Made by a program: the position numbers and the translations under genes
Shown: positions 1,975 through 59,814 of the stretch, piece after piece
Numbering within the stretch: position 1 is the stretch's first letter
How the letters are laid out: each line of letters begins with the position of its first letter
Assembly: GCA_051313645.2 (NCBI GenBank)
Contig: JBNRSN020000001.1
Location: 156,922,001 to 156,986,000 of the forward strand
Direction of reading: 5' to 3'
DNA from: Centroscyllium fabricii
Lineage: Eukaryota
Length of the DNA stretch: 64,000 nucleotides
The notes under the pieces: model-generated
What the model saw: only the letters and a program-made list of their open reading frames with translations
What the model was told of the DNA's origin: nothing
Databases searched by the model: none

Positions 1975-2251
1975 GACAGTGACGTATCGTCAATATCTCT
2001 TAATAAAAGACTGGACGAGTAGTTACCGTAACTATAGGCTTTTAATAACTTACTTTGGAGCTACCCTCCGAACGAACATCAGAACAGAATGAGGGAGCCT
2101 CGGTCAGTCCGCACCTATAAAGGCCTCACCTGGGGGAGGAGTTAGAGGTGTGGCTGACCTAGCTCCACGACAGTACTACAGCAGTATTACAGGGCTGTGT
2201 ATCACACACAGCCAATTGTTGGCAACAATAATTCAGTGGTACATATACATA

Positions 2252-5200
2252 TTATGGGTTACCACATTCACCCCTTCTTGAAAATTTTAAGTCCGGGGGG
2301 GGTGAATGGACCGAGCAGTTCAATATCAGTTTGTCCGGCGGTCGTGTCAGCCTGGAGGACCGCCGGAGTTCCGGTGATGGTTCTTCGTGGTCCGTGCTGC
2401 TCGAGTCCGTTGGTGGTGACAGCGGCTCTGGTGCCGTGGTTTCGGATGGTGATGGTCTCAGATGGTCCGAGCTATCGGAGTGGTGGTCTTGGGCTGGCCA
2501 CGGCTGGGGCTCTGGAAACCTCGGAGGCCATCGTAGGTGTAGGGGGTGTTCTGGATACTGTGGCTGGGCGGGCTGCTGGCCGACCAGGGGCTCTGCTGCG
2601 GTGTTTCCTGCGGGCGCCAGGTCCCTAATTGAAACGGTGTCCTCACGCCCGTCCGGGAACCGTACAAACGCGTATTGCGGGTTCGCATGCAGGAGCTGCA
2701 CCTTGTCCACCAGGGGGTCGGTCTTGTGGCCACGGATGTGTCTCCTAAGGAAGACCGGCCCCGGTGTTGTGAGCCATGGAGGAAGAGCTGTCCCCGAAGT
2801 CGACTTCCTGGGAAAAGCAAAAATCAAATCATGAGGGGTGGCGTTAGTGGCCGTACACAGGAGAGAGCGTATAGAATGCAGCGCGTCTGGGAGGACTGCC
2901 TGCCAATGGGCCACTGGAAGGCCTCTGGACTTCAGAGCCAGGGTGACCGCCTTCCAGATGATCCCATTCTCCCTTTCTACCTGGCCGTTCCCCCGGGGGT
3001 TATAACTGGTCGTTCTGCTCGTGGCAACCCCTTTCTGGAGCAGAAACTGACGCAGTTCATCGCTCATGAACGATGACCCCCGGTCGCTATGGATGTGGCT
3101 GGGGAGACCAAAAATGGCGAACAGCGTGGTGAAGTGTTTTATCACCGTTGCGCTCGTCATATCTGCGCAGGGGAAGGCGAAGGGGAAGCGGGAGAACTCG
3201 TCTACGAACGTGAGGAAGTATGAGTTGCGGTCGGTGGTGGGGAGGGGGCCTTTGAAGTCCACGCTGAGACGTTCAAAGGGGCGGGTGGCCTTAATGAGGT
3301 GCACCGTGTCTGGCCGGAAAAATTGGGGTTTGCACTCGGCGCAAACAGGGCACTCTCGGGTCATAGCCTTGATCTCCGTGATGGAGTAGGGGAGGCTACG
3401 GGATCTAACGAAGTGGGCGAGTCTGGTGACACCCGGGTGGCAAAGGCAGTCGTGGAGGTCCTTCAGCCGGTCTAGCTGGGCACTGGCGCAGGTTCCCCTG
3501 GACAGTGCGTCCGGGGTTTCATTGAGTTTGCCTGGTCGGTAAAGAATGTCGTACTCGTAAGTCGAGAGTTCGATCCGCCACCGCAGGATCTTATCATTCT
3601 TGATCTTACCCTTCTGTTTATTATTAAACATAAACGCCACCGACCGTTGGTCGGTGAGAAGGGTAAAATGCTTACCGGCCAGGTAATGACGCCAGTAGCG
3701 CACGGCCTCCACGATGGCCTGGGCCTCCTTTTCCACTGCAGAGTGGCGAGTTTCGGGTCCCTGTAGGGTGCGGGAGAAAAACGCTACGGGCCTGCCTGCC
3801 TGATTCAGGGTGGCAGCAAGGGCGAAGTCCGAAGCGTCGCTCTCCACCTGGAAGGGAATGGATTCATCAACAGCGAGCATGGTCGCCTTGATGATGTCTT
3901 CCTTTATCCGGGCGAATGCCGTTTGGGCTTCTACCGAAAAGGGGGAACACGGCAGCCTTGAGGAGTGGTCTAGCCTTGTCCGCGAACTGTGGGACCCATT
4001 GTGCGTAATAGGAGAAAACTCCTAGGCATCTCCTCAAGGCTTTAGGGTTGTGAGGTAGGGGCAGTTCTTGAAAGGGTCGCATACGCTGTGGGTCGGGGCC
4101 GAGGACCCCGTTTTCCACCACGTATCCGAGGATGGCAAGCCGGTCTGTATTAAAGACACATTTGTCTTTGTTATACGTGAGGTCCAGCTTGTCCGCCGTG
4201 TCGAAGAATTTGGCCAGATTGGCATCGTGGTCCTGCTGGTCGTGGCCGCAGATGGTCACGTTGTCCAGGTAAGGGAAAGTGGCCTGCAACTCGTTCTGGT
4301 CAACCATGCGGTCCATCTCCCTTTGCAACACTGACACTCCGTTGGTCACGCCGAAGGGGACCCGGAGGAAGTGGTAGAGCCGACCGTTCGCCTCGAAGGC
4401 GGTGTAGGGGCGGTCGGCTTTCCGGATCGGGAGTTGGTGATACGCCGACTTAAGGTCGATCGTGGAGAACACCTTATATTGGGCGATCTGGTTGACCATT
4501 TCCGAGATGCGGGGGAGGGGGTAGGCGTCGAGCCCGGTGTAGCGGTTGATAGTCTGGCTGTAATCGATCACCAGCCGCTGTTTCTCGCCAGACTTCACCA
4601 CTACGACCTGGGCCCACCAGGGGCTGGTGCTGGCTTCAATTATCCCCTCCTTCAGCATACGCCCGACCTCCGACCTGATAAACGTGCGATCCCCCACACT
4701 GTACCGCCGACTCTTGGTAGCAATAGGTTTGCACTTGGGGTCGAGGTTGGCGAACAGTGAGGGGGGGTCGATTTTCAGGGTGGAGAGGCCGCAGGCCGGG
4801 CTCCGCTTTGGGAAGGGACTGTCCCGGCTACTGACGGTGAGGGGGGGCAAGGTCCCGCCGAACTCCATTGTCACGCTCTTGAGGTGGCACTGGAAATCGA
4901 GACCTAGTAAGGCTGGGGCACACAACTGCTGGAGGGTGTACAATTTAAAATTACGGTACACGCACCCCTTGACTGTGAGCGTGACGGAGCAGTAGCCGGT
5001 GACGTCCGCGGTGTGGGACTTTGAAGCAAGGGAGACTTGGTAATTCGTGGGCAGGATCTGCAGTCCGCAGCGCTGCACTGTATCGGGGTGCACAAAGCTC
5101 TCCGTGCTTCCAGTGTCAAATAGGCAATCGATAATATTGCCGTTTATTTTAATAGGCGTTATCGAATTCGACAGAGTGTGTGGCCTGTCCTGGTCCACTC

Positions 5201-6521
5201 TGGGTATGGCTGAAGCCGACGTATACTTTTGTGTGTGGGGGCCCCTTGCTGGTTGGGGCTGTACACAAAATGGCGGCGCCCCTGGCTCACACATGGTGGG
5301 GCCTTTGAGACAAAATGGCGGCGCCCCTGGCTCGCACATGGCGGGCCGCTGGGGACAAAATGGCGGCGCCGAGGGGTCGCACATGTTGGGCCGCTGGGGT
5401 CGAGATGGCGGCGCCCGTGGTTCGCACGCGGCTGACCGCTGTGAGCGTGCTGGCGGCGCCCGTGGTTCGCACGCAGCGGGCCGCAGTGACTGGGTTGGCG
5501 GCGCCCGTGGTTCGCACGCAGCGGGCCGCGGTGGTCGGGTTGGCGGTGCCCGTGATTCGCACGCAGCCGGCCGCGTTGGGTCTGCTGCTGGCGTTGGGGG
5601 GTCGCGCTTTGCCGGCCTTTGCCGCATCGGGGTGGGAGCTGGGGGCGCTTCCCTTCTACCCCCGGACCGTCGCTGGATCGCGCTGGTATTGCAGCTTACC
5701 TGAGGTCTGTCGGAGCTTTCACAGGCTGCGCTGTTGTACCTGGCGTTGGGCGCTGCTGGTGCTGATCTGCAAGCCTTTGCGTAGTGTCCCTTTTTGGCGC
5801 ACCTCTCGCAGGTCGCGGTCCTTGCTGGGCATCTCGCTCACGGGTGCAGTCCCTGGCCGCAGAAATAGCAGTGTTTGTCCTTTGTGGCTGTCGCAGCTAT
5901 CGTGGGGGTCTCGACCCGTTGTGGTGCTGCCCAGGCCTGGGCCCGTTGTGGCGTGGCCCACATGTCGTAGGCCTGCGGGTTTGTGCTGCTGTACGCCTGC
6001 AATTTATTGCGTGCTCCTTCAACGGAGTTAGCTATGGCGATAGCCTCTTCCAGAGACAAAGAGTCTTTTTCGAGCAGCCGCTGGCGGGCTTCCACGCACC
6101 TCAGGCCGGTTACGTACGCGTCTCGGACGAGGAGGTTCGCCTCCTCTTCTGCTGTCCGGGCTTGGCAGCCACAGACCCGTACCAGGGCCTGGAGCGCTTG
6201 CTCAAACTGTTCGTTGGTCTCACCCGGTAGTTGTGGTCTGGTCGCGAGCACATGTCTGGCGTAGACCGAATGGACCGGGCGCTCGTAGCATTTCCTCAGC
6301 TTTTCCACTGCCCCTGGATAGGTTTTGGCGTCTCGGATGAGGGAGAATACTCGGCTGGAGATCCTAGACCGGAGAACCTGTTACTTGTTCACGTCGGTTG
6401 TAGCCTTGGCGGCGTCCATATAGGCCTCCAGGAGACCGAACCAGTGTTCAAACGTGGTGGCGGCAGCTGGGTCCTGTGGACTGATATCCAGCTTTTCTGG
6501 CTTTACTGCACCGCTCTCCAT
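2252..6521 (-). pseudogene. gag-pol of element A (Gag with double CCHC, protease, RT, RNase H, integrase), disrupted
   Basis: CYFCGQGLHP..CERCAKKGHYAKAC; LFDTGS; IDLKSAYHQ; YLDN; ESDASD; HxxxxH..CPVC; VDF/SDRG/VERENG. Stops in gag and a frameshift near 3950. Confidence 0.92.
5262..5580 (-). repeat. 45-bp coding tandem repeat (PAACEPRAPP..) in the gag-protease linker of A
   Basis: About 7 units visible in ORF 3867-5627. Several contain the YY1-like motif AAAATGGCGGC. Confidence 0.85.
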
Positions 6522-6607
6522 TTCAAAATTTTTAAGTTATTAAAATTGACGTATCGTCAATATCTCTTAATAAAAGACTGGACGAGTAGTTACCGTAACT
6601 ATAGGCT

Positions 6608-6852
6608 TGTGGCGGTACGCCCACGGGGACATCGAATCCGCCACGGAGACTCCGCGGAGCAAAGCCCCGCTCATCCGGGTGACGCGACGACGTCATCACG
6701 TCGGCCGACACGATGACGTCACCAACCGCGGGACCGTTTAAATATGCCTGTCTCGAGTGGTTCAGTCTCTTTCTTGTTTTGTACTAGTGATTAAAGCTGT
6801 GTTTTTCTCTAGCTCTGGCTCACGTGTGGTTCCTAGGCCTGCCGGCGCTACA
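6608..6852 (+). mobile_element. Solo LTR of a CsRn1-type Gypsy family inserted in the 5' LTR of A
   Basis: TGTGGCG...GCTACA with 4-bp TSD GGCT. Shares TGTGGCG..ACGCCCA and AACCGCGGGACC..TTTAAATA with the LTR at 55550-55827. Confidence 0.88.
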
Positions 6853-7104
6853 GGCTTTTAATAACTTACTTTGGAGCTACCCTCCGAACGAACATCAGAA
6901 CAGAATGAGGGAGCCTCGGTCAGTCCGCACCTATAAAGGCCTCACCTGGGGGAGGGGTTAGAGGTGTGGCTGACCTGGCTCCACGACAGTATTACAGCAG
7001 TATTACAGGGCTGTGTATCACACACAGCCAATTGTTGGCAACAATAATTCAGTGGTACATATACATATTATGGGTTACCACAGACAGTAACACAATTCAC
7101 TATG

Positions 7105-13109: not shown

Positions 13110-16100
13110 TGTGGTAAACCACTGTTTATATATGTTTGTACCTGTATACATTGTGTGTGTGACCTCCATTGTTTGTACATAGTCTTTCATGTATAGCTTC
13201 TCCGGGCATGCCCGTGCTGACCCCGACTGTGGCTCCTCCTCCCCGGACCCAGGTATAAAGGCGACTGTCTCCCTCCCCCAATCATTCTGGGATCAGTCGA
13301 CTAGCATGGGCATGCTCATGTCTTAGTGAATAAAAGCCTTTAGTTCACTCCTCAACTTCTCGTCTCTGAAGTTATTGAAAAGGCATCAATTTTATTCACT
13401 AAGTTTGCATCATGGAGCAAATGCTGAAACCTGCGACGTTAGAACTAGATCCCCAAGCGCCAGGTGCCTCTAACACTTTTACGCACTGGTTCTCCTGCTT
13501 TGAGGCATACCTCGAAGCCTCCGCCGCGATCGTCCAGGTGGACCGGGACAAACTGCGCCTCCTCAATGCCCGGGTGGGCCCTCAGGTGTACTCGATCATC
13601 GCGGACGCTACGTCCTACACCGAGGCGGTCAGAATCTTGGAGGCCGAATACACCCGGGCACCTAACGTGGTCTACGCCAGACACCTCCTGGTCACCCGAA
13701 AGCAGCAACCCGGGGAATCGAGCGTGGAGTTCCTGCGAGCGCTGAGAGTCCTCTGCCGGGCCTGCAATTGCAGAGCACAGACGGCCGTTGTGCACGCTGA
13801 AAATCTCATCAGGGACGCCTACATCGCCGGCCTCAGGTCAGACTATATCAGGCAGAGACTGTTGGAAAAGGATGGCCTGGACCTGCAGGCGACGGTAGAG
13901 CTTGCGAACTCACTGGACCTGGCGTCCCATAATATGGCCGCCTACAACTCTGACCACGCGGGCACATCGCGGACGCTGCCATCTTGGACGCAGCTGGCCA
14001 CATCGCGACCCGTGGACGAGCTGACAGCGGCGACAACCTCGAAAGGCCCGAAATGTTATTTCTGCGGCCAGGCCCAGCACCCCAGACGGAATTGCCCGGC
14101 AAGGGACGCGACCTGTTCCAAGTGCGGGAAGAAGGGCCACTACGCCAAGGTATGCAGAGCGGCAGCGCAATCGACCCCTAAACCCAGCAGCGCCGCATGT
14201 GGCCCGTGGCGTCAGCCATCTTGGACACAGCCGGCAGCACCATCTTGCACACAGCCCGCCGCGTGGGCGCCCGCGCCATCTTGGACCCAGCCCGCCGCGC
14301 CATCTTGGACACAGCCCGCCGCGTGGGGGCAGCCATCTTGGGACCAGGCCCCAGACCCCTCCACCGACCCGACGGACCCGATCCTGGCCTCAATCACCCT
14401 CGACCAAGACAAGAGTCAACCGCTTAGCAAGTCGATGCAAGCAGGTGAATGGCCGAACTACGGACTGCCTTTTCGACAGCGGGAGTACGGCAAGCGTTGT
14501 ACACCCAGATACGCTTCTCCCTGAGGGTAACACCGGCAAGCAAAAAAATCTCTATGACTTCGAGGTCCGAATCAGCGGACGTCTGCGGTCGCTGCGTAGT
14601 GACCCTGACAGTGCGGGGTGTACACTTCCAAAATTTTAAGCTATTCGTGCTGCTGCAGCTCTGCGCTCCCCTACTGCTGGGCCTTGATTTCCAATGCCAC
14701 CTCCAGAGCATGACAATGGCGTACGGTGGGCCTCTTCCCCTGCTCACGGTCAGCAACCAGCACTTCGCACAGTGCCCACAGCACACTACCTGTGGCCTCT
14801 CGACCCTTAAGATCGCCCCTCCCTCACTCTTCGCCAACCTCACCCTGGACTGCAAGCCCGTCGCCACCAAGAGTAGGCGCTACAGTACCGGGGACAGAGA
14901 TTTTATCAAGTCGGAGGTGAAACGGCTTCTGAGGGAAGGGGTCATCGAGGCTAGTAATAGCCCCAGGAGAGCCCAGGTAGTGGTTGTAAAGACCGGAACC
15001 AAGCACCGAATGGTCATTGACTACAGTCAGACCATTAATCGGTTTACACAACTGGACGCGTAACCCCTCCCCCGCATAGCGGACATGGTGAACCAGATCG
15101 CGCAGTATCGGGTCTTCTCAACCATCGATTTAAAATCGGCGTATCACCAGCTCCCCATCCGCCCAGAGGACCGCCACTATACTGCCTTCGAGGCAGACGG
15201 CCGCCTCTATCACTTCCTTAGGGTTCCATTTGGTGTCACTAACGGGGTCTCAGTCTTCCAAAGGGAGATGGACTGAATGGTGGATCAGTACGGACTGCGG
15301 GCCACTTTCCCGTATCTGGATAATGTCACCATCTGCGGCCACGATCAGCAGGACCATGACACCAACCTCCAGAAATTTCTCCACACCGCCAAAACCCTGA
15401 ACCTGACCTATAACACGGAGAAATGTGTGTTCAGGACAACCCGCCTCACCATCCTCGGCTGTGTTGTGGAGAATGGGGTCATCGGTCCCGACCCGGACCG
15501 CATGCGCCCCCTCCTGGAGCTCCCCTTACCCCACTGCCTCAAGGCCCTGAAAAGGTGCCTGGGGTTCTTTTCCTATTATGCCCAGTGGGTCCCCAACTAC
15601 GCGGACAAAGCCCGCCCACTCATTAAATCGACCTCTTTTCCCCTGTCGGCAGAGGCCCGCATGGCCTTCAGCGGCATCAAACAGGACATCGCAAAGGCCG
15701 CGATGCACGCAGTGGACGAATCCATCCCGTTCCAGGTGGAGAGCGATGCGTCCGACTTCGCCCTGGCCGCCACCCTTAACCAGGCGGGCAGACCCGTGGC
15801 CTTCTCGCGCACCCTCCAGGGCCCCGAGACCCGACACTCTTCCGTTGAGAAGGAGGCCCAGGCCATTGTTGAAGCAGTGCGACACTGGAAGCACTACCTG
15901 GCCGGCAAACGATTTACCCTGCTGACTGACCAACGCTCAGTCGCTTTTATGTTCAACAACAAAGAGCGGGGCAAAATCAAGAACGACAAGAAATTGAGGT
16001 GGAGAATCGAACTCTCCGCCTTCAATTATGATATCTTGTACCGGCCTGGGAAATTCAATGAGCCCCCAGATGCCCTGTCCCGCGGTACATGTGCCAGCGC

Positions 16101-17619
16101 ACAAGTAGACCTTCTCCAGACCCTGCACAACGACCTCTGTCACCCGGGGGTCACCAGGTTTGTTCATTTTATTAAGTCCCACAACCTCCCTTACTCCATC
16201 GAGGAGGTCAGGTCCATGACCAAGAACTGCCAGGTCTGTGCAGAGTGCAAGCCGCACTTCTTTCGGCCGGACTGGGCACACCTGATCAAGGCCACCCGCC
16301 CCTTTGAGCGACTCAGCATCGATTTTAAAGGGCCCCTCCCCTCCTCTAACCGCAACGTGTACTTCCTCAATGTCATTGACGAGTACTCACGTTTCCCCTT
16401 TCGCCATCCCCTGCCCAGACATGACCTCCACGGTCATCAGGGCACTGCACAGCATCCCTGTTCGGGTACCCCAGCTACATCCATAGCGACCGGGGTGCCT
16501 CTTTTATGAGTGACGAGCTGCGTCAGTTTCTGCTCGCCAAGTGCATCGCCACGAGCAGGACTACCAGCTATAACCCCCGGGGGAACGGACAGGTGGAGAG
16601 GGAGAACGCCACCATCTGGAAGGCCACCCTATTAGCCCTGCGGTCTAAGGGCCTCCCAGTCTCCCGCTGGCAGGACGTCCTCCCCGAAGCGCTCCACTCC
16701 ATTCGGTCACTTTTATGTATGGCCACTAACGCCACCCCTCACGAGCGACTTTTTGCCTTCCCCAGGAAGTCGGCTTCAGGGACCTCGCTGCCATCTTGGC
16801 TATCGTCCCCGGGACCCGTCCTGCTCCGGAAACACGTGAGGGGCCATAAGTCGGACCCCCAGGTCGAATGGGTCCATCTCCTCCACGCCAACCCCCAGTA
16901 TGCCTACGTGGCGTACCCTGATGGGTGGGAGGACACGGTGTCCATCAAGGACCTGGCACCCTCGGGTGCCCCCGAGACCACCACGACCCACCAGCCCGCA
17001 CCCCACCCCCCCGCCGCCACCCTCCTGGCACCAGCACCACGGTACGTCATACCCCTCAAGGCACCAGCACCACGGTACGCCCACCCAGCACCTACAGGCA
17101 GCACGGTATGGCCCCCAAACCTACGCACCCGCCGGCCGGACGACAAGTGGGAGAGCGCGCCAGTGACCGTCACCGTAAGGGGCCCCGCATCGGAGCAAGC
17201 ACCGCCGCCGATTCCGCCGCCGCTGACTCCGCCGCCAACTGTACGCCGCTCTACAAGGCAGACCAAACCGCCCGAGAGACTGAACCTTTGATGGTTGCCC
17301 AACATCACACCGCCGGACTTTATTTTAAACAAGGGGTGAATGTGGTAAACCACTGTTTATATATGTTTGTACCTGTATGCATTGTGTGTGTGACCTCCAT
17401 TGTTTGTACATAGTCTTCCATGTATAGCTTGTCCGGGCATGCCCGTGCTGACCCCGCCTGTGGCTCCTCCTCCCCGGACCCAGGTATAAAGGCGACTGTC
17501 TCCCTCCCCCAATCATTCTGGGATCAGTCGACTAGCATGGGCATGCTCATGTCATAGTGAATAAAAGCCTTTAGTTCACTCCTCAACTTCTCGTCTCTGA
17601 AGTTATTGATAAGGCATCA
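13110..17619 (+). mobile_element. Full-length Ty3/Gypsy element B (Mag-like)
   Basis: 279-bp LTRs at 13110-13388 and 17341-17619 with about 6 mismatches. TSD CTCAC. PPT AAGGGGTGAA. Confidence 0.95.
13412..17291 (+). pseudogene. gag-pol of element B, frameshifted and with stops
   Basis: Gag with CYFCGQAQHPRRNCPARDATCSKCGKKGHYAKVC; LFDSGS; YLDN; RNase H and integrase split over several ORFs. Confidence 0.92.
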
Positions 17620-25614: not shown

Positions 25615-27254
25615 TGTGGTAAACCACTATGTATATATTTGTATCATATCCATGGCCTGTAGTATTGTGTATACAGTTCTCTGTGTACTGCTTGTCTGGG
25701 CATGCCCGTGCTGACTCCACCTGTGACTCCTCCTCCCAGGACAGGTATAAAGGTAACTGTCTCCCTCCCCCCGATCATTCCGGGAGCAGTCGACTAGCTG
25801 GGGCATGCCCAACCTTTAGCGAATAAAAGCCTTTATTCACCACGTAACTTCTCGTTTCTGAGGTTATTGATAAGGTATCAATTTTATAAGCTAAATTTAA
25901 TCATGGAGACCATGCTAAAACCAGCGATGTTAGAACTGGATCCCCAAACACCAGGCGCCTCTAACACGTTTACGCACTGGTTCAACTGCTTCGAGGCATA
26001 CCTCGAAGCCACCGCGGCGATCGTCCAGACGGAAAGGGACAAGCTGCGCCTTCTCAACGCCCGGGTGGGCCCCCAGGTGTACTCAATAATCGCAGACGCT
26101 ACGTCCTACACTGAGGTGGTCCGAATCCTGAAGGCCGAGTATACCCGGGCACCGAACATCATCCACGCCAGACACCTTCTGGCCACCAGAAAGCAACAAC
26201 CCGGGGAATCGAGCGTGGAGTTCCTACGAGCACTGAGAGTCCTCTGCCGGGCCTGCAACTGTAAGTCACAGTCAGCCTTGGTGCACTCTGAAAGCCTCAT
26301 CAGGGACGCTTATGTCACTGGCCTCAGGTCCAATTACATTCGCCAGAGACTGTTGGAGCAGAATGGCATGGACCTGCAGGCGACAATCGAACTTGGGAAT
26401 GCGCTGGACTTGGCGTCCCATAATATGGCCGCTTACTCGGCCGACCACGCGGGCCATAAGTCTGACCCCCTGGTCGAACGGGTCCACCTGCACGCCAACC
26501 CCCAGTACGCCTACGTGGCGTACCCTGACAGGAGGGAGGATACGGTGTCCATCAAGGACCTGGCACCCTCGGGTGCCCCCGAGACCAGTACGACCCATCA
26601 GCCCGCAGCCCCCCCCCCCCTGCATACCACCACCTTTGGGGCACCAGCACCACGGTATGTCATACCCCTCGAGGCGCCGGCACCAGCACCACGTTACGCC
26701 CACCCAGCACCTGCAGGCAGCACGGTATGGCCCCCTAACCTACGCACCTGCCAGCCGGATGACGAATGGGAGAGCGCGCCAGTGATTGTTACCGCAAGGG
26801 GCCCCGCATCGGATCAAACGCTCTCACCGACCCCGCCGTCGCCGACTCCACCGCCAACGGTGCGCCCGCCGACTCCACCGCCAGCGGTGCGCCGCTCGAC
26901 AAGGCAGACCAGGCCGCCCGACAGACTTAACATTTAACGACTGCAAAGCATTCGCCCCGCCGGACTTTATTTTTTAACAAGGGGTGAATGTGGTAAACCA
27001 CTATGTATATATTTGTATCATATCCATGGCCTGTAGTATTGTGTATATAGTTCTCTGTGTACTGTTTATCTGGGCATGTCCGTGCTGACTCCGCCTGTGA
27101 CTCCTCCTCCCAGGACAGGTATAAAGGTAACTGTCTCCCTCCCCCCGATCATTCCGGGAGCAGTCGACTAGCTGGGGCATGCCCAAGCTTTAGCGAATAA
27201 AAGCCTTTATTCACCACGTAACTTCTCGTTTCTGAGGTTATTGATAAGGTATCA
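25615..27254 (+). mobile_element. Miniature 1.64-kb non-autonomous Gypsy element C (B-related)
   Basis: 266-bp LTRs at 25615-25880 and 26989-27254, TSD CTGGT, PPT present. Protease, RT, RNase H and the integrase core are absent. Confidence 0.95.
25903..26937 (+). CDS. Open 344-aa fusion ORF: Gag N-terminal domain plus integrase C-terminus and Pro-rich tail
   Basis: METMLKPAMLELDP..HNMAAYSADHA joined to GHKSDPLVERVHLHANPQYAYV..VRRSTRQTRPPDRLNI*, with no stops. Confidence 0.75.
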   Translation: METMLKPAMLELDPQTPGASNTFTHWFNCFEAYLEATAAIVQTERDKLRLLNARVGPQVYSIIADATSYTEVVRILKAEYTRAPNIIHARHLLATRKQQPGESSVEFLRALRVLCRACNCKSQSALVHSESLIRDAYVTGLRSNYIRQRLLEQNGMDLQATIELGNALDLASHNMAAYSADHAGHKSDPLVERVHLHANPQYAYVAYPDRREDTVSIKDLAPSGAPETSTTHQPAAPPPLHTTTFGAPAPRYVIPLEAPAPAPRYAHPAPAGSTVWPPNLRTCQPDDEWESAPVIVTARGPASDQTLSPTPPSPTPPPTVRPPTPPPAVRRSTRQTRPPDRLNI

Positions 27255-37436: not shown

Positions 37437-40400
37437 TGATGCATGATCAATCACAATGAGTCGACGGGATTAAGTAATTGAGGCTTTAATTAACTAAGAA
37501 CAGAAGTACAGGTCTTATCGCTCTCTGGTCCTGGAATGCCATGAGGTAAACATGGCTGCCACCTTTATACTACAGTCTGTGGGTGGAGCCCGGAGGCGGA
37601 GCCGGCTGAGGCATCCCAGGTAGATACCGGTGGGGACAAAAGAGGTAACAAGGACATAACTATATACAGCACAGTAAGTAACAAGGAGATAACTATATAC
37701 AGCACAGTATTAGTGGGAAACAGTATTACTGGTTTACCACATTCACCCCTCGTTTTAAGATTGAGTCTGGCTGGGTGAAGTGGTTCTGCCGGGGGCAGAA
37801 TAAGAAAGTTTATCGGAGGGTCTGGTCTCCCTCCGCGACCGGTGCAGCCCTGGCTGCAGTGCGGGATCCTCGGGCAAGGTGGTCCTCATCGTCGGAGGTG
37901 ACGCAACAGTCACCTGGAGGTCGTGCATCATCGGATCCCGGGTTGCTGGCGTACCGTCTACAGGGGCTAGAGAAAAAGAGGGTAACAAAGGTGCGTCGAG
38001 AGTTATGGTGGGGGGGTGGAAAATGGTGGTCTCAGGGGCGCCCGAGGGCGCAAGGTCTCTAATGGAGACCGTGTCCTCCCGCCCGTCTGGGAACGCCACG
38101 TAGGCGTATTGGGGGTTGGCGTGGAGGAGCTATACCCTTTCGACCAGGGGGTCCGTCTTATGGCCCCTCACATGCTTCCGAAGTAGGATGGTCCCTGGTG
38201 ACGTCAGCCACGATGGTAGCGAGGTCCCCGAGGTGGACTTCCTAGGGAAGGAAAACCTCTTGTGAGGGGTAGCATTGGTCGCAGTGCAGAGCAGTGACCG
38301 AATGGAGTGGAGTGCATCAGGGAGGACCTCCTGCCAGCGGGAGATTGGGAGGCCCCTAGACCGCAGGGCTAGAAGAGCGGCCTTCCAGACCGTCCCATTC
38401 TCCCTCTCAACCTGTCCATTCCCCCGGGGGTTGCAGCTGTTGGTCCTGCTCGTTGCAACTCCTTTTGCGAGCAGGTACTGGCGCAGCTCGTCACTCAAAC
38501 GAGGAACCCTGGTCACTATGTATGTAGTTGGGGAGGCCGAACATGGTGAAAATGCTGTGCAGGCACTTGATGACCGTGGCTGCGGTCATGTCGGGGCTAG
38601 GGATGGCGAAGTGGAAACGTGAGTACTCATCAATGATGGTAAGAAAGTACACGTTGCGGTAGGAGGAGGGGAGGGGCCCTTTGAAGTCGGCACTCAGGCG
38701 CTCAAAAGGGTGGGTGGCCTTTACCAGGTTAGCTTTGTTTGGCCTGTAGAAGTGCGGTTTGCACTCAGCGCAGATCGGGCAGCTCCTGGTAACGGCCCGG
38801 ACTTCCGCAACGGAGTAAGGCAGGTTGCGGGATTTGACAAAATGGAAAAGACAGGTAACTCCCGGGTGGCAGAGGTTGTTGTGGAGAGAATGCAAACTAT
38901 CCACTTGTGCGCTGGCACAGGTTCCACGAGATAGAGCATCCGGGGGCTCATTGAGTTTGCCGGGCCGGTACAAGATGTCATAATTGTAGGTGGACAGCTC
39001 AAACCTCCACCTCAGGATCTTGTCGTTTTTGATCTTGCCCCGCTGTTTATTATTAAACATAAAAGCCACTGAACGCTGGTCAGTGAGCAGGGTGAATCTT
39101 CTACCGGCCAGGTAATGCCTCCAGTGCCGCACCGCTTCCACGATGGCCTGGGCTTCTTTTTCCACCGAGGAGTGTCTGATTTCACGGCCTTGGAGGGTAC
39201 GGGAAAAGAAGGCCACTGGTCTCCCCGCCTGATTGAGGGTAGCGGCCAGAGCAAAAAGTCAGAGGCATCGCTTTCCACCTGGAACGGGGTGGATTCATCC
39301 ACGGCATGCATGGTCGCCTTCGCGATGTCGGACTTGATGCGCTCAAAGGCTACGCGAGCCTCGTCCACCAGGGGGAAAGAGGTGGATTTGATGCTTTGTC
39401 AGCGTAAATAGGGACCCACTGGGCGCAGTATGAGAAAAAGCCCAGGCACCTCTTCAGGGACTTGAGACTGTGGGGGAGGGGGAGTTCCATGTGGGGGCAC
39501 ATGCGTTCGGGGTCAGGACCGATGATCCCATTTTCCATGACACATCCCAGGATGGCGAGCCGGGTGGTGCGGAAAATGCATTTCTGCTTGTTGTACGTGA
39601 GATTAAGGATTTGGACGTCATGGCCGCAGACGGTGATATTATCCAAGTTGGGGAACGTAGCCAGCAGCCCGTTTTGGTTCACCATACGGTCCATCTCCCG
39701 TTGGAAGACTGATACACCGTTGGTGACGCCGAAGGGGACCCTGAGGAAATGGTAAAGACGGCCGTTCGCCTCAAAGGCGGTGTACTGGCGGTCTTCGGGG
39801 CGGATGGGGAGCTGGTGGTATGCAGACTTTAAGTCGATCGTGGAGAACGCCCGGTACTGCGCAATCTGGTTGACCATGTCAGAAATGCGAAGTAGGGGTT
39901 ATGCGTCCAGCTGTGTAAAACGGTTTATGGTATGGGCTGTAGTCAATGACTAGGCGGTGTTTCTCGCCGGTCTTAACGACTATAACTTGGGCTCTCCAGG
40001 GGCAGTTGCTAGCCTCAATAACCCCCTTCCTCAGGAGTCGCTGAACCTCAGATTTAATAAAAAATCTATCCTCCATACTGTAGCGCCTGCTCTTAGTGGC
40101 TATGGGCTTGCAGTCTGGGGTGAGATTAGTGAACAGTGGAGGAGGGGCGACCTTGAGAGTCGAGAGGCTGCAAACAGTGCGTGGCTGGTGATTTGGAAAC
40201 TGCTGGCTACAAACAGTGAGGGGGGGAGCGGCCCACTGTACTTCATTGTGACACTGTCGAGGTGGCTCTGGAAGTCTAGCCCGAGCAGGATGGCAGCGCA
40301 GAGGTGAGGGAGGATAAAAAGTTTTAAATTGCTGCAGACTGTGCCCCGCACCGACAATGTAACGACGCAGTATCGCCGACATCCGCCCTTTGAGTTTTAG

Positions 40401-41826
40401 AGGCCAGGGAGGACTGGGAGTGAAAGCCTCCGCACTGTGTCCGGATGAATAAAGCTTTCGGTGCTCCCGGAGTCGAAAAGGCAGTATGTGATGTGGCCAT
40501 TTACCTGGATGTCCATCGTGGACCTGGCGAGCTGGTGAGGCCTGGATTGATCCAGGGTGATGGAGGCCAGTTGGGGCAGTAGCAGGTCGAAGTCCTCGGG
40601 TGTGGAAGCGGGGGAGGCGGGCGCGATCGGCGAGTTCAAAGATGGCGGCGCCCACGCATCGCACGCGGCCGGGAGAGATCCAAGATGGCCACCACTTGCT
40701 TCCCACGCGACTGGGTAAGATGGCCGCTCCAAGATGGCTGCTCTTCAGGGCCACACGCGGCGCTGCTGGGATTGGGAGAGGGTCTGGCCTTGCAGACACT
40801 GGCGTAGTGTCCCTTTTTCCTGCAGCTGGAGCACGTCGCATCTTTTGCCGGGCAGCACTGCCTGGAGTGCTTAGAGTCGCCACAGAAGTAGCACTTCTGT
40901 GCGCGGGACACCGCTGCAGCCGTTGGCCTAACATCCAAGATGGCTGCGCCCGTGCTGTCCACGAGGCTACCTGCTGATCGTAGGCCTCCATGTTTCTGTG
41001 CGCCACGTCCAGGGAGAGCGCGAGGGCTGCCGCTTTCTTCAGATCGAGGTCACTCTGTTCGAGTCGCCTCTGGCGGGTGTAGTTTGATTGTACACCCGCA
41101 CCGAGGGCATCGCAGATCAAGTCCTCCACGCAGGCCTGTGCCGTTACAGGCTTGCAGTTGCAGGCCCGCCCGAGCACTCACAGCGCCCGAAGGTAGTCCG
41201 CAACAGACTTACCGGTCTGTTGTTTTTGGCACAGTAGGAGGTACCTCGCGTATACTTCGTCAATCGGGGCCGCGAACTGGTCTTTCAGGGTATTCAGGGT
41301 GTTCTCGCCCTCAATCAAGGTGTAGATAGCCGGGCTTACCCGGGATTGCAGGACCGCCAATTTTCGTTCATTCGTGGTTACGGTTTCGCTGGAGGCCTCT
41401 AGGAAGAGTTCGAAACACTTGAGCCAGTGTGTGAATCTCCGCGGTGTGTCCGCCACCTGCGGATCTAACTCCAGGCGATCAGGTCTTAGAATCTTATCCA
41501 TCGCTAAACTTAGTTAATTAAATTGATGCACGATCAATCACAATGAGTCGACGATATTAAGTAATTGAGGCTTTAATTAACTAAGAACAGGAGTACAGGT
41601 ATTATCGCTATCTGGTCCTGGAATGCCATGAGGTCAACATGACTGCCACCTTTATACTACAGTCTGTGGGTGGAGCCCGGAGGCGGAGCCGGCTGAGGCA
41701 TTCCAGGTAGATACTGGTGGGGACAAGAGGTAACAAGGCGAAAACTATATACAGCACAGTAAGTAACAAGGAGATAACTATATGCAGCACAGTATTAGTG
41801 GGAAACAGTATTACTGGTTTACCACA
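37437..41826 (-). mobile_element. Full-length decayed Ty3/Gypsy element D (Mag-like)
   Basis: LTRs at 37437-37741 and 41524-41826, TSD CTCAT, 33-bp direct repeat inside the LTR. gag MDKILRPDRLELDP, double CCHC, FDSGS, NLDN and integrase, with many frameshifts. Confidence 0.93.
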
Positions 41827-44241: not shown

Positions 44242-47200
44242 TGTGGTAATCATGTATATAACCACTGTATATAGTTGCTGACTACCTGTGTAATACTGTA
44301 GGCTAGGACAGCCACACCCCTAACTCCTCCCCTCAGGTCGGAGTATATAGGCGAGTGCTGACCTGCCCCCACTCATTCTTCACCTTGACCTCATCAGGAG
44401 ACCAGCTCCATTCTTAGTTAATAAAAGCCTGTAGTTTAGGCAACTACTCGTCTTTGTGTGATTAATTGACGATACGTCAATTTTATTAACTAAATTTTTA
44501 AACGTGCAGAGCAATGCAGTGAAACCGGATCGCCTCGATGTCAATCCTCAGGCGCCCGAAGCTGCTAACGACTTTGAACACTGGTTTGGCCTGGTCGAGG
44601 CCTACATGAAGGCCGTAAAGGCAACGAGTGATGAGGACAAACTACAGGTACTCTCATCACGGATCAGCGGCCGGGTGTACTCCTTTATCAGAGGCCTCAA
44701 GACTTACGAGGAAGCGGTCAAGAAACTAAAGGACAGCTACATGCGCCCGATCCACTCAGTCTACGCCAGGCATGTACTGGTGACCAGAAGACAACGACTC
44801 GGTGAGTCTAATGAACAATACCTGCTTGCGCTCCAAGTCCTCGTACGGGCCTGCGACTGCAAGGCAAGGACAGCGGAGGAAGAGGCGAATCTTCTAGTCC
44901 ACGATGCCTACGTGGCAGGACTCAGGTCCAGCCAGGCCCGCCAGTGGCTGCTGGAGCAGGAGACACTGTCGCTCAAGTCCGCTGTAACTCTTTCGAATGC
45001 GGTGGACGGGGCGCTTAAGAAGATGGACGCATACAGGGATTACGACTCCCACGCAAGTACACCTGACCCTTGGGCGACAGAGACGGGCCGAGGCCCCCAC
45101 GATGGCAGCGGCGGCTGCGAAGGCGCCGATGGGGCACAGATGCTACTTCTGCGGCCAAGGAAAGCACCCACGGGTGCAGTGCCCCGTGAAGAATACGACC
45201 TGCGCGCGGTGCGCGAAGAAGGGGCACTACGCTAAGGCGTGAAAATCCAGCCCGGCCTCCACCTCCAGATCCAACAGCGCGGCCTGTGAGAGCAGCGAGG
45301 CCACTCCGTGGCTACAGGTACGGTGTTGCAGCGCGACCCAGCAGCGGTCAGCTGGGGGTAAATCCCGGGTGCCTCCATCCCCTTTAAATGTACGGCGGAG
45401 GCCTGCCGCGCGTGCGGCACAGGCGCCGCCATCCCAAATGCGACTGCGACCGGCCATGTGCGAACCCCCGGCGCCGCCATCTTGCCCAGTGGTCAACCGC
45501 GTGCGAACCACGGGCGCCGCCATCTTGTCCACAGCGGCCGGCCGCGTGCGAACCACGGGCGCCGCCATCTTGTCCACAGCGGTCAGCCGCGTGCGAACCA
45601 CGGGCACCGCCATCTTGTCCACAGCGGTCGGCCACGTGCGAACCACGGGCGCCACCATCTTGTCCACAGCGGCCAGCCGCGTGCGAACCACGGGCACCGC
45701 CATCTTGTTCACAGCAGCCAGCCGCGTGCGAACCACGGGCGCCGCCATCTTGTCCACAGCGCTCAGCCGCGTGCAAACCACGGGCGCCGCCATCTTGTTC
45801 ACAGCAGCCGGACACGTGCACATCGCCAGCGCCGCCATCTTCTGAGCGGCCATCTTGACAAACGCCCCGGCCGGGGCCCCCACACACACACATACACTTG
45901 GGCCTCAGCCACCGTCGATCAGGCTAGGCCGCACACCTTGTCCAACTCCATGATGGGGATAAAGGTGGACGGGCACGTCACCAACTGCCTGTTCGACACC
46001 AGTAGCACAGAGAGCTTCATACACCCCGACACAGTGCAGCGCTACGCACTACAGACCCAGCCCACGCACTACAAAATCTCCCTTGCCTCAAAGTCCCACA
46101 CGGCGGACATCACCGGCTACTGCAACGTCATGCTCACGATCAGGGACCGCATTTACCGCAACTTTAAGTTGTACGTACTCCACCAGCTGTGCGCCCCAGT
46201 ATTACTGGGACTGGATTTCCAATGTCACCTGAAGAGCGTGACGATGGATTTCGGTGGAACCCTGGCCCCCCTCACTGTTAGTAGCCGGGACAATCCCAAC
46301 TTAACGCGGAGCTCGACTTGCGGCCTGTCCACATTAAAAGTCGACCCCCCCTCTCGACCCCAAATGCAAGCCCATTGCTACCAAAAGGTCGGTGTTACAG
46401 TGCAGTGGACCGGGCGTTTATGAGGTTGGAGGTCGAGCACATGCTGAAAGAAGGGATCTTGAGGCCAGCACCAGCCCCTGGCGGGCCCAGGTCGTGGTGG
46501 TCAACAGGCGAGAAACTGCGCATGGTCATTGACTATAGCCAGACAATCAACCGCTACACCGGGCTTGACGCCTACCCCCTCCCCCGCATCTCGGATATGG
46601 TGAACCAGATCGCCCAGTACAAGGTCTTTTCCACAATCGACCTCAAGTCGGCGTATCACCAACTCCCCATCCGGAACTCCGACCACCGGTACACCGCCTT
46701 CGAGGCGAACGGCAGGCTTTACCACTTCCTCCGGGTCCCCTTCGGTGTCACCAACGGGGTGTCGGTGTTCCAGAGGGAGATGGACCGCATGGTTGACCAG
46801 AATGGGTTGCAGGCCACTTTCCCCTACCTGGACGACGTGACCATCTGCGGCCATGACCAGCAGGACCACGATGCCAACCTCGCCAAATTCCTGCACACGG
46901 CGAAACGGCTGGACCTAACATACAATAAAGACAAATGTGTCTTTAGTACGGACCGGCTCGCTATCCTCGGATACGTGGTGGAAAACGGGGTCCTTGGCCC
47001 AGATCCACAGCATATGCGCCCCTTGCAAGAGCTGCCCTTACCTCACAACCCCAAAGCCCTGAGGAGATGTCTAGTGTTCTTTTCTTATTACGCGCAATGG
47101 GTCCCCCAGTACGCGGAAAAGGCCAGACCTCTCCTCAAGGCTGGCGTCTTCCCCCTCTCGGCAGAAGCCCAAACGGCATTCGCTCGGATCAAGGAAGACA

Positions 47201-48087
47201 TCATCAAGGCGACCATGCACGCCGTTGATGAGTCCATCCCTTTCCAGGTGGAGAGTGACGCTTCGGACTTTGCCCTTGCCGCCACCCTGAACCAGGCACG
47301 CAGGCCCGTAGCGTTCTTCTCCCGGATCTTACAGGGATCCGAAACTCGCCACTCAGCGGTGGAAAAGGAGGCCAAGGCCATCGTGGAGGCAGTGCGCTAC
47401 TGGCGTCATTACCTGGCCGGTAAGCGTTTTACCCTGCTCACTGACCAACTGTCGGTGGCGTTTATGTTTAACAATAAACAACGGGGTAAAATCAAGAATG
47501 ATAATATCCTTCGGTGACGGATCGAACTCTCGACTTACGAGTCTGACATTCTTTACCGTCCAGGCAAGCTTAACGAACCCCCGGACGCACTGTCCAGGGG
47601 AACATGCGCCAGTACCCAGCTTGACCGGCTGAAGGCCCTCCACGATCGCCTCTGCCACCCGGGTGTCACCAGATTCGCCCACTTCGTCAAATCCCGTAGC
47701 CTCCCCTACTCCATCACGGAGATTAAGGCTATGACCAAAGAGTGCCCTGTCTGTGCCGAGTGCGAACCCCAATTCTACAGGTCAGACAGGACGCACGTCA
47801 TGAAGGCCACCCGCCCCTTTGAACGCCTGAGCGTGGACTTCAAAGGCCCCCTCCCCTCCACTGACGGCAACTCGTATTTCCTTACGGTCATAGATGAGTT
47901 CTCAGGCTTCCCCTTTGCCTTCCCCTGCCTAGATATGACGAGCGCAACGGTGATCAAACACTTCACCACGCTGTTCGCCATTTTCCGTCTCCCCAGCTAC
48001 ATCCATAGCGACCAGGGCTCGTCGTTCATGAGCGACGAACTGCGTCAGTTCCTGCTTCAGAAAGGGGTTGCCTCAAGCAGAACCTCA
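44242..48087 (+). mobile_element. 3'-truncated Ty3/Gypsy element F (A-related)
   Basis: 5' LTR at 44242-44479, then gag, 45-bp repeats, protease, RT (YLDD), RNase H and integrase up to GVASSRT. No 3' LTR. Confidence 0.92.
45455..45860 (+). repeat. 45-bp tandem array (about 9 units) carrying the GCCGCCATCTTG motif
   Basis: CATCTT recurs at 45478, 45521, 45566, 45611, 45656, 45701, 45746, 45791, 45836 and 45851. Confidence 0.92.
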
Positions 48088-48102
48088 AGCTGCCCCACCC
48101 CC

Positions 48103-55299: not shown

Positions 55300-55828
55300 T
55301 GTGGTAACCGTATTGTATAAGCTTACCACTGCAATATTGTCACACTGTTTTACAACACTGTCGTGGAGCCAGGTCAGCCACACCTCTAACTCCTCCCCCA
55401 GGTGAGGCCCTTTATAGGTGGGGACTGACCAGGCTCCCTCATTCTGTTCTGGATGTTCGTTCGGAGTGTAGCTCCAAAGTTAGTTAATAAAAGCCTGTAG
55501 TTTAAGGTCACTACTCGTCGAAGTCTTTTATTAAGAGAATTGACGATACTGTGGCGACACGCCCACCGGCAGCCACGAACCCGCGCTGGGAAGGCTGCAA
55601 AGCGGCCCCGCCCGTCGGAGGACGCACGGACTTCCCCGACGTGATGACGTCACCAGGTGGCCAGCCGGCAGTGACGTCCCCAACCGCGGGACCTTTAAAT
55701 ACCTGAGCGCCAGGTGGCTCAGCCTCTTCTCTCCACCTGGCCCTAGTTGTAACAAGTAGTATAATAAAAACTCTCCTTCTAACCTCTCTGTGTCCAGCGT
55801 GGTCCTTCAGCCTTGCAGGCCTCAACAC

Positions 55829-55840
55829 TGGTGACCCCGA
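55829..55840 (+). promoter_or_regulatory. tRNA-Trp primer-binding site of G
   Basis: TGGTGACCCCGA one nt after the 5' LTR, complementary to the tRNA-Trp 3' end as in CsRn1-clade elements. Confidence 0.88.
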
Positions 55841-55923
55841 TACCTGAGACGATTCTCAGGTGAACAATGAAGCAGCCACTGCAGGACTGAGGGCCAAGCT
55901 GCCGCAGCCGAATCGCTACCACC

Positions 55924-58900: not shown

Positions 58901-59814
58901 ACGTGCACATCGACCTGGTTGGACCACTACCCCCATCACGTGGACACTCGTACCTCCTCACAATGGTCGACCGCACCACCCGCTGGCCTGAAGCGGTCCC
59001 CCTCAACACGACCACCACCGCCGAACTGGCCAGGGCCTTCATCGCCACCTGGGTCGCCTGCTTCGGCGTCCCCAACGACATTACTTCAGACAGGGGCCCC
59101 CAATTCACTTCAACTCTATGGTCAACCATCGCTCACGACCTTGGGGTAACCCTGCACCGAACCACTGCCTACCACCCGCAAGCCAACGGCCTCTGAGAAC
59201 GGTTCCACCGAACTTTTAAAACATCCCTGCGGGCCAGCCTCCAGGACGCAACCTGGACGGACCGCCTGCCCTGGGTAATGCTCGGCCTCCGCTCAGCGGC
59301 CAAAGAAGATCTACACGCCTCGGCAGCCGAACTCGTTTACGGCCAACCACTAACGGTACCAGGCGAGTTCGTCGCAGAAACAAGCGAACCCTGGTCGGCC
59401 GAGCGCTGCCTCAGGGAATTCAACAACCAGGCAGCAGAATTCAAACCACTTCCGGTGGCCCGCCACGGTCACCCGGCGACACGTGTCCCCGATGCCATTC
59501 AGGATGCCAAGTACGTGTTTGTCCGCCATGACTCACACAAAACACCGCTGCAGGCACCGTACGACGGGCCATTCAGAGTGCTTCGGGCGGGACCCAAAAC
59601 GTTTGACATTCAAATGGGCAACATAACTGAGACCGTATCCATTGACCGGCTCAAACCAGCACACGTAATGGCGGGCGAGACAACAGTCCCCGCACAACCA
59701 CCTAAACGCGGCCGCCCTACCGTACCAAAACCCGCCCACACTCCCACACAGACCAACAAGCAACACATCACACGTGCCGGCCGTACCATCAGGCCACCTA
59801 AGCGCCTCGCCTGA
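55924..59814 (+). CDS. gag-pol of G, single frame with one in-frame TGA (59194-59196) in integrase
   Basis: CHCC knuckle CYYHTRFEAKAQRCVPPC; LCDTGA; YLDD; TDASD; HGLSH..CNAC; NGL*ERFHR; PYDGPF. Confidence 0.9.

What the first reader, a model, noticed from the sequence alone, without database searches (positions are those of the whole stretch)
13322..13403. Mag-like Gypsy lineage replaces the tRNA PBS with a co-varying complement of its own poly(A) signal (candidate self-priming system)
Seen: none of six elements has a TGG-type PBS, and gag starts only about 25 nt after the LTR. Each has LTR-CA, exactly one A, then 13-14 nt complementary to its own LTR poly(A) region. B: CTTAGTGAATAAAA (13322) / TTTTATTCACTAAG (13390). 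A: TAAGTTATTAAAA / TTTTAATAACTTA (6533-6545 with 6856-6868). D: CTTAGTTAATTAAA / TTTAATTAACTAAG (41509 with 41572). F: TTAGTTAATAAAA (44414) / TTTTATTAACTAA (44481). E: 55480 / 60310. C matches 12 of 14. Substitutions between subfamilies are compensated on the other arm. The upstream arm's 3' end lands at the U5 boundary, where a minus-strand primer must sit. Known: Tf1/sushi elements self-prime using the first ~11 nt of the transcript. Inference: here the putative primer lies about 40 nt past the likely start site (TATA at 13255, TCATTC initiator at 13282) and is the poly(A) signal itself. It could be a cleaved internal primer or come from the RNA 3' end. The same stem would hide AATAAA only in the 5' LTR. 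I cannot tell whether this has already been reported.
Basis: partly seen in the sequence, partly recalled or inferred. Interest (0 to 1): 0.92.

Follow-up and report, generated by a model that had tools for sequence, protein, structure and literature searches.

The report
Retrotransposon primed by its own RNA
A very abundant family of jumping genes in this animal genome appears to start copying itself not with a borrowed tRNA but with the first ~52 letters of its own RNA, and rare copying accidents preserved in the genome point to where that primer begins and ends.

Summary
Observation confirmed. In these Ty3/Gypsy elements the primer site (PBS) lies one base after the 5' LTR and is the complement of a 13-nt arm in the element's own LTR, ending at AWTAAA(A). 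About 175,000 junctions match genome-wide (control 48). Pairing holds at positions 1-13 and stops at 14, with at least 50 compensated changes on a gag tree. Relatives in metagenome contigs keep the stem (29 of 36 assessable).

New evidence: three patterns found 1,672 aberrant copies (controls 0) whose PBS complement runs on into R. Their ends pile up at the TATA-linked initiator 49-54 nt upstream of the arm end (p about 2e-5) and thin out beyond it. So the arm is internal to the RNA, not the first 11 nt as in Tf1; the primer is most likely the capped ~52-nt 5' fragment released by one cut.

Identity with the poly(A) signal is not general (8 of 19 outside families). No RNA data were available; cut and priming are inferred. 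Mag membership is unproven. The scan noted a similar self-priming Gypsy clade in another genome (e1-7857539). Verdict: new variant of Tf1-type self-priming.

The parts
13110..17619 (+). Element B: full-length but frameshifted Ty3/Gypsy element; LTRs 13110-13388 and 17341-17619 (98% identical); 5-bp TSD
13254..13259 (+). TATA box of B, 30 nt above the initiator A
   Evidence: TATA-to-initiator spacing 28-33 nt across junctions
13284..13335 (+). Inferred primer RNA: initiator A to the end of AATAAAA, 52 nt
   Evidence: over-long PBS copies end at this initiator (family-B example L211)
13303..13316 (+). Small hairpin in R just upstream of the arm; role untested
13323..13335 (+). Priming arm (13 nt), overlapping AATAAA at 13329-13334; inferred cut site directly after 13335
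13336..13389 (+). Loop: rest of R, U5 to the terminal CA (13388) and the 1-nt spacer (13389); template of the inferred minus-strand strong-stop DNA
   Evidence: loop 47-61 nt in 80 junctions
13390..13402 (+). PBS, exact complement of the arm; gag ATG follows at 13412
17331..17340 (+). Polypurine tract before the 3' LTR of B (approximate 5' limit)
1980..7082 (-). Element A; arm 6856-6868, PBS 6533-6545; unrelated solo LTR inserted at 6608-6852 between them
25615..27254 (+). Element C, internally deleted; arm 25816-25828, PBS 25882-25894 (2 mismatches)
37437..41826 (-). Element D; arm 41572-41584, PBS 41510-41522
44242..48090 (+). Element F; arm 44414-44426, PBS 44481-44493; no 3' LTR found (3' limit approximate)
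55300..64000 (+). Element E; arm 55480-55492, PBS 60310-60322; 5' LTR split by a nested tRNA-primed element (55550-60300); runs off the window

Best explanation
These are tRNA-independent, self-primed Ty3/Gypsy retrotransposons. (1) Pol II starts at the initiator ~29 nt below the TATA box (inferred from DNA fossils). (2) Nucleotides ~40-52 of the RNA pair with the PBS just after U5, closing a 47-61-nt loop (sequence shown; fold predicted). (3) One cut directly after the arm, probably by the RT's RNase H as in Tf1 (inferred), frees a capped ~52-nt fragment whose last 13 nt are the primer duplex. (4) RT copies the spacer, U5 and the rest of R, and jumps to the RNA 3' end on an overlap of about 15 nt (inferred; one retrocopy places the poly(A) site there). 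(5) Plus-strand synthesis copies 13 nt of the primer back into the PBS, so arm mutations are written into the PBS (inferred from covariation that stops at 13). The 13-nt limit may reflect the ~13-bp polymerase-to-RNase H distance reported for Ty3 RT (inference). (6) Rarely (order of 1%) RT runs further along the primer, up to its 5' end, and leaves the over-long PBS copies seen in the genome. In this host the arm also contains the poly(A) hexamer, so the stem may mask it at the 5' LTR only; that is a possible second role, not the conserved one.
For: Geometry: arm 3' end pairs one base from the LTR end in 80 junctions; pairing 73-80 of 80 at positions 1-13, 33 of 80 at 14, 4-26 of 80 beyond. 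24 distinct perfect 13-mers. At least 50 compensated changes at positions 4-13 and 2 at position 14 by parsimony on a gag tree. Genome-wide at one position: PBS TTTTAAT goes with an ATTAAAA arm 58,432 times and an AATAAAA arm 474 times. Over-long PBS copies: 713, 538 and 421 matches, controls 0. Of the first 120 examined, 23 end at the initiator +/-1, 30 before it, 43 run to the LTR start, 10 into the PPT, 14 other. In a third group with a shorter initiator-arm distance (49-50 nt) 3 of 40 end at initiator +1 and a fourth at 49 nt. Pooled, 145 loci after dropping 9 with recurrent junctions and 6 without an initiator call: 34 ends in the 24 positions before, 17 in the 3 positions at, 6 in the 24 positions after (p 2e-5 and 4e-6). 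14 of 20 fold-back copies with both ends found have a perfect 5-bp TSD, so they formed before integration. Outside this genome 29 of 36 assessable loci have at least 11 of 13 pairs and 25 at least 12; background 8 and 0 of 234. Predicted fold: z -2.81 for B; arm-PBS pairing probability above 0.5 in 42 of 48 sequences. Tf1 precedent for an RNase H cut (Maxwell 2020, PMC7175516, passages); Ty3 RT spacing ~13 bp (PMC5371799, passages).
Against: No RNA data: no RNA run was listed, so the start site, the cut and the primer were not observed. The ends at the initiator could also arise if a plus strand ending in a 13-nt PBS re-primed on an intact RNA; they map the RNA 5' end but do not prove primer length. 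10 of 120 extensions run through U3 into the PPT and pol, as expected if the 3' copy of the arm sometimes serves as primer or template. The largest class (43 of 120) is uninformative on primer length, and 23 of these 43 could not be checked for a TSD. A 52-nt primer without a modified base needs a stop at 13 nt that I can only infer. 7 of 36 assessable outside loci lack a good stem, 44 of 80 could not be assessed, and the gag queries came partly from stem-bearing loci. No start site could be placed for the outside families, whose duplex is 13-16 bp. The poly(A) site rests on one retrocopy.
Confidence: 0.7

Rival explanations
1. Self-priming with a short 13-16-nt primer, made either by two cuts or from a second, TATA-less start at the arm (ordinary Tf1 geometry). 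Over-long copies would come from re-priming of the PBS-ended plus strand on intact RNA or on its own DNA.
For: Sharp 13-nt boundary of covariation; the arm often begins with an initiator-like TTAG; fold-back copies need only the 13 nt; Tf2 uses alternative start sites (PMC5341516, passages).
Against: TATA and initiator are conserved 49-57 nt upstream of the arm end. Extension ends are dense all the way to that initiator and sparse after it. The base at arm position 13 varies (T, A, C).
Confidence: 0.13
2. The primer is the arm's other copy: the 3' end of a second full-length RNA, or a short transcript polyadenylated in the 5' LTR, trimmed back to the duplex and acting in trans.
For: 10 of 120 extensions continue through U3 into the PPT and pol, one for 1.5 kb; in this host the arm contains the hexamer; occasional arm/PBS mismatches resemble another subfamily's arm (element C).
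Against: Pile-up at the initiator and drop after it argue against a U3-containing primer; the intramolecular stem is favoured in folding; 11 of 19 outside families have no hexamer in the arm. The short-transcript version is not excluded.
Confidence: 0.12
3. The stem exists only to hide the poly(A) signal at the 5' LTR; priming uses something else.
For: The PBS half exists only after the 5' LTR; the 3' LTR folds no better than shuffles (z -0.25); all 80 junctions here have AWTAAA in the arm (partly by pattern choice).
Against: Would not fix the stem end one base from the LTR, would tolerate G-U pairs (6 of 640), would not explain over-long antisense copies beginning exactly at the arm end, and fails in families without the hexamer. 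No other PBS is present.
Confidence: 0.03
4. A host tRNA, tRNA half or other small RNA is the primer.
For: Half-tRNA priming exists in copia lineages (PMC6317226, passages). My direct tRNA test covered only Cys and Lys isotypes (17 sequences).
Against: No TGG start; 24 PBS variants here and 19 other families each follow their own LTR; longest match to the tRNAs tested is 6 nt.
Confidence: 0.02

Closest known systems
Tf1/Tf2 (S. pombe), Tj1, Tf1/sushi and Tcn1 chromoviruses: self-primed reverse transcription
   Same: PBS next to the 5' LTR complementary to the element's own R region; no tRNA; a cut at the duplex end must free the primer (PMC7175516, PMC4600332, PMC5341516; passages).
   Different: [quoted passage not shown] No chromodomain found; two CCHC arrays; RT motif mostly Y/FxDN; a different, animal-wide lineage.
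TAR/Houba/Osr-1 Ty1/copia elements of plants, predicted self-priming
   Same: Self-primer predicted from LTR-PBS complementarity outside the Tf1/sushi group (PMC6317226, passages).
   Different: Copia superfamily and plants; in the passages I saw, no start-site mapping or poly(A) overlap is given.
Mag lineage of Ty3/Gypsy
   Same: Two CCHC arrays in Gag (PMC2577118), mostly 5-bp TSD and short LTRs (PMC3286476).
   Different: Mag elements in that paper have tRNA-Leu, -Ser or -Arg PBSs; these have none. RT placement against named Mag elements was not tested.
Fungal GalEa copia elements with a Conserved Hairpin Site
   Same: No tRNA PBS; a hairpin in its place (PMC5445492, passages).
   Different: There both arms lie downstream of the LTR and are conserved in sequence; here one arm is in the LTR and the pair co-varies.
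Retroviral poly(A) hairpin (HIV-1; recalled, no call)
   Same: A stem that can bury AAUAAA near the 5' end.
   Different: There the stem lies within R and priming is by tRNA; here the partner strand is the PBS.

Membership tests
Ty3/Gypsy LTR retrotransposon | TG...CA LTRs, TSD, PPT, gag then PR-RT-RNase H-IN | tested here: met
   best solved-structure match is Ty3 RT, E 5e-46
Tf1-type self-priming (works like) | PBS complementary to own LTR transcript, not tRNA | tested here: met
Tf1-type self-priming (works like) | Primer is the very 5' end (first 11 nt) of the RNA | tested here: not met
   arm starts about 39 nt below the inferred start; extension ends map to the initiator; DNA evidence only
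Tf1-type self-priming (works like) | RNase H of RT cleaves the RNA at the duplex end | not testable with these tools
   needs biochemistry
Tf1/sushi chromovirus clade (membership) | Chromodomain on integrase; usually one CCHC array | tested here: not met
   no chromodomain hit in three integrase-containing ORFs; two CCHC arrays
Tf1/sushi chromovirus clade (membership) | RT groups with Tf1/sushi | not tested
   no reference sequences available as tool output
Mag lineage | Two CCHC arrays in Gag | tested here: met
   (B Gag); criterion from PMC2577118; shared with Micropia/Mdg3
Mag lineage | 5-bp TSD | tested here: met
   A, B, C, D; criterion from the table in PMC3286476
Mag lineage | tRNA-Leu/Ser/Arg PBS | tested here: not met
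   no TGG PBS in six window elements or 80 junctions
Mag lineage | RT/RH/IN phylogeny with Mag, SURL, CFG1 | not tested
   tree holds only this clade and DUF7041-type outgroups; motif searches in two papers' supplements found nothing
CsRn1 clade | tRNA-Trp PBS, 4-bp TSD, CHCC Gag motif | tested here: not met
   criteria from PMC2582038; the nested element at 55550-60300 meets the first two and is only 34% identical in RT

The most novel reading that the evidence does not exclude
A whole animal-wide Gypsy lineage (sharks and rays, cnidarians, nematodes, flatworms, arthropods, molluscs by protein hits) primes with a long capped fragment of its own RNA, cut at an internal site that in elasmobranchs is the poly(A) hexamer. 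One switch would then mask 5' polyadenylation, create the primer and split R into a part inherited from each LTR, and the PBS would be rewritten from the primer every cycle with its length set by RT geometry.
Probability: 0.45. Interest if true: 0.85.

Novelty: new variant of a known kind. Interest (0 to 1): 0.74.

Why it matters
It extends tRNA-independent priming to a large, apparently unnamed animal Gypsy lineage with at least ~175,000 junctions in one vertebrate genome. It also changes the geometry: the primer arm need not be the RNA 5' end. Such elements could escape control by tRNA fragments and are missed by PBS-based annotation (both inferred). The over-long PBS copies give a general way to read start sites and primer ends of retroelements from DNA alone. 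The model gives exact coordinates to test: a 52-nt capped RNA, a cut after AAUAAAA, a ~54-nt strong-stop DNA.

Tried and rejected
RNA evidence: no RNA holder listed; two runs laid were contigs of unknown kind and showed no starts or ends. Viral-contig scan: 42 pattern matches, none confirmed. tRNA search returned 63 scored matches, 30 fetched; only Cys and Lys isotypes were recovered, so the tRNA test is weak. Poly(A) retrocopies: 1 match and 4 matches including the same one; L351 is a 3' LTR after a PPT ending 15 nt past the arm with a 17-A tail; L352 ends 10 nt past the arm with 11 A; L353 and L354 are not convincing. Clade name: my recalled labels ('SN', 'AN', Saci-2) were not confirmed and are not used. 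Papers not held: DeMarco 2004, Lin and Levin 1997 and 1998, Levin 1996, Esnault and Levin 2015. and one search had alignment or offset faults (B-type loci unaligned, initiator mis-called in CATTCATT families); one search replaced them. L172 ends at the initiator with one mismatch but was left in the 'short' class. Assembly fold-back artefact rejected: 14 of 20 have TSDs. A pure microhomology origin of the initiator ends was considered: 11 copies share two landing sites in gag and were collapsed to two; the rest land in many places. Search of earlier findings by sequence and by place returned nothing. R-scape was not available; I counted pairs per element instead.

Full report
Setting. The window lies in a 7.2-Gb genome. 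The nearest named proteins are from rays and sharks (73-82% identity), then cnidarians, nematodes, flatworms, arthropods and molluscs at 50-65%, so the host is probably an elasmobranch (inference). Six related Ty3/Gypsy copies (A-F) lie in the window. They have TG...CA LTRs, a PPT, 5-bp TSDs where both ends survive, two CCHC arrays and PR-RT-RNase H-IN order, with no chromodomain hit. Among the first 120 homologues, 81 have Y/FxDN at the RT motif, 32 Y/FxDD, 7 no call.

Observation. Confirmed for all six. The junction pattern matches 174,790 times in the genome against 48 for the control. I analysed 80 junctions drawn from 70 of the first 100 listed matches, 200 kb of arbitrarily chosen sequence and the window; junctions with too little flank or off-pattern were left out. 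Pairing is 73-80 of 80 at positions 1-13, 33 of 80 at 14 and 4-26 of 80 at 15-20. There are 24 distinct perfect 13-mers. Own pairs are perfect in 36 of 56 distinct combinations; shuffled partners give 2.1. Positions 1-5 were mostly fixed by the pattern; at 6-13 there are 615 Watson-Crick pairs, 6 G-U and 19 mismatches. On a gag tree built without the PBS, parsimony needs at least 50 compensated changes at positions 4-13 and 2 at position 14. One position counted genome-wide gives 58,432 matched to 474 mismatched (the reciprocal cells were not counted, and copies are not independent). Frequent double changes with almost no G-U intermediates and a hard edge suggest that the PBS is copied from the arm, as a PBS is copied from its primer.

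Beyond this genome. Of 80 metagenome loci kept (265 confirmed among 600 pattern matches), 36 had an assessable 5' end. 29 show at least 11 of 13 pairs and 25 at least 12; 7 do not. Background positions reach 11 in 8 of 234 and never 12. In 19 hand-picked family representatives the duplex is 13-16 bp, the spacer is one base (A 16, G 2, T 1), and AATAAA/ATTAAA is in the arm in only 8; 3 others have it downstream. Stem-bearing elements are spread across the RT tree of the clade. So the position of the stem is the conserved trait, and the poly(A) overlap is not.

Where the RNA starts. No RNA reads were available. In this genome a TATA box and a CATT(C/T) initiator are spaced 28-33 nt apart, with the initiator A 49-57 nt above the arm end (72 of 80 junctions had an initiator call). 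If the primer is longer than the PBS, RT should sometimes copy past 13 nt and leave a fossil; an earlier scan note on a BEL/Pao copy with a 43-nt PBS (e1-7803750) helped prompt this test. Three patterns found 713, 538 and 421 such copies, controls 0. I examined 90, 30 and 40 of them, taken from the top of the lists. In the first 120: 23 end at the initiator +/-1, 30 end before it, 43 run to the LTR start, 10 run on into the PPT, 14 other. In the third group, where the initiator is 49-50 nt away, 3 of 40 end at +1 and one more at 49 nt. Pooled over 145 loci (9 recurrent-junction copies and 6 without an initiator call dropped): 34 ends in the 24 positions before the initiator, 17 in the 3 positions at it, 6 in the 24 after (binomial p 2e-5 for the spike, 4e-6 for the drop). 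That is the pattern of run-off from an RNA whose 5' end is the initiator. Several copies then resume in the normal leader or gag (L172, L241, L253, L255), like faulty second-strand transfers. The copies that run to the LTR start are inverted structures with two U3 ends; 14 of 20 checkable ones have a 5-bp TSD, so they were made before integration and are not assembly artefacts.

Mechanism. Shown: arm-PBS complementarity, its covariation and 13-nt limit, its position, its spread, and antisense extensions that begin exactly at the arm end. Inferred: start at the initiator; a cut after the arm; use of the 5' fragment as primer; copying of 13 nt into the PBS. One processed retrocopy puts the poly(A) site 15 nt past the arm, which would leave a short overlap for first-strand transfer. 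Ty3 RT has its two active sites ~13 bp apart (PMC5371799, passages), which could set the PBS length. The fold of B's 5' RNA pairs arm and PBS (z -2.81); the 3' LTR does not fold better than shuffles. A small hairpin ending at the spacer can form in 28 of 37 distinct LTR ends, with a co-varying pair, recalling the U5-IR-like stem in the title of Lin and Levin 1998 (title only). Caveat: the fossils map the RNA end but do not prove primer length, since a 13-nt PBS end could re-prime on intact RNA; and 10 of 120 extensions use the 3' copy. I put own-RNA priming at about 0.95 and the ~52-nt 5'-fragment form at 0.7.

Comparison. Tf1 primes with its first 11 bases after an RNase H cut (PMC7175516, passages; PMC4600332; PMC5341516). 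Self-priming is also predicted for Tcn1 and TAR copia elements (PMC6317226, passages). These elements work like Tf1 but fail the 5'-terminal-primer feature and the chromovirus features. 'Mag-like' fits two CCHC arrays and 5-bp TSD (PMC2577118 and PMC3286476, passages) but not the tRNA PBS, and no tree with named Mag elements was possible. A nested CsRn1-type element in the same window has a normal TGG PBS matching the tRNA-Trp motif of PMC2582038 (parts 1-2 of 6 read) and serves as an internal contrast. Other papers seen as passages without bearing: PMC3601003, PMC2996953, PMC2871265 (supplements searched), PMC6238403 (supplements searched, one PDF unreadable), PMC5445492, PMC7472051.

Novelty. 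Ten full-text searches listed no paper whose title, abstract start or the passages I read describes self-priming in this lineage or an internal arm. The library lacks most subscription journals and Repbase reports, and the primary Levin papers and DeMarco 2004 were not held; Butler 2001 was not looked up. Prior description is therefore not excluded. The scan itself noted a similar self-priming animal Gypsy clade in another genome (e1-7857539); I could not confirm by sequence that it is the same clade. Verdict: real feature, new variant of a known kind, interest 0.74.

Noticed in passing
window 55550-60300 (+): Young CsRn1-type Gypsy element (278-bp LTRs 100% identical, 4-bp TSD, TGG-type PBS at 55829-55840, DUF7041 Gag) inserted in E's 5' LTR between arm and PBS.
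   Followed up: partly
window 6608-6852 (-): Unrelated solo LTR with a 4-bp TSD inserted just after the arm in A's 5' LTR. Both A and E were hit within the loop; whether this is a preferred target was not tested.
   Followed up: no
RT motif, e.g. window 15277-16509; P0001-P0120: Most of the clade has Y/FxDN instead of YxDD (81 of 120 homologues); stem-bearing elements occur with both forms.
   Followed up: partly
L162, L171, L174, L176, L180, L187 and others: Integrated inverted-LTR molecules with two U3 ends and a 5-bp TSD: integrase accepted a substrate with no U5 end; probably several hundred in the genome.
   Followed up: partly
L167, L189, L232, L278; L177, L230, L243, L264; L170, L181, L276: Over-long PBS copies that land at the same two places in gag across subfamilies: hot spots or propagated defective lineages.
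   Followed up: partly
window 5258-5615, 45400-45914, 61234-61595: 45-bp tandem repeats inside the Gag-PR region of A, F and E, in frame and variable in number.
   Followed up: no
window 49752-50002: 8/16-bp tandem array.
   Followed up: no
window 42935-43708 (+); related stretches 23092-23851, 34869-35136: DDE_Tnp_4 (Harbinger-type) transposase fragments.
   Followed up: no
window 18827-19208, 22475-22874, 28883-29278: Three copies of a ~390-bp repeat, 91-94% identical, probably LTRs of another family; 19362-21786 and 50240-52624 are related inverted stretches without Pfam hits.
   Followed up: no
L034-L035: Four copies of one element of this clade in tandem at about 4.36-kb spacing.
   Followed up: no
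G000 C2:4.9-5.5 Mb and C778:19.0-19.5 Mb: Clusters of near-identical tRNA genes (Lys and Cys among those fetched).
   Followed up: no
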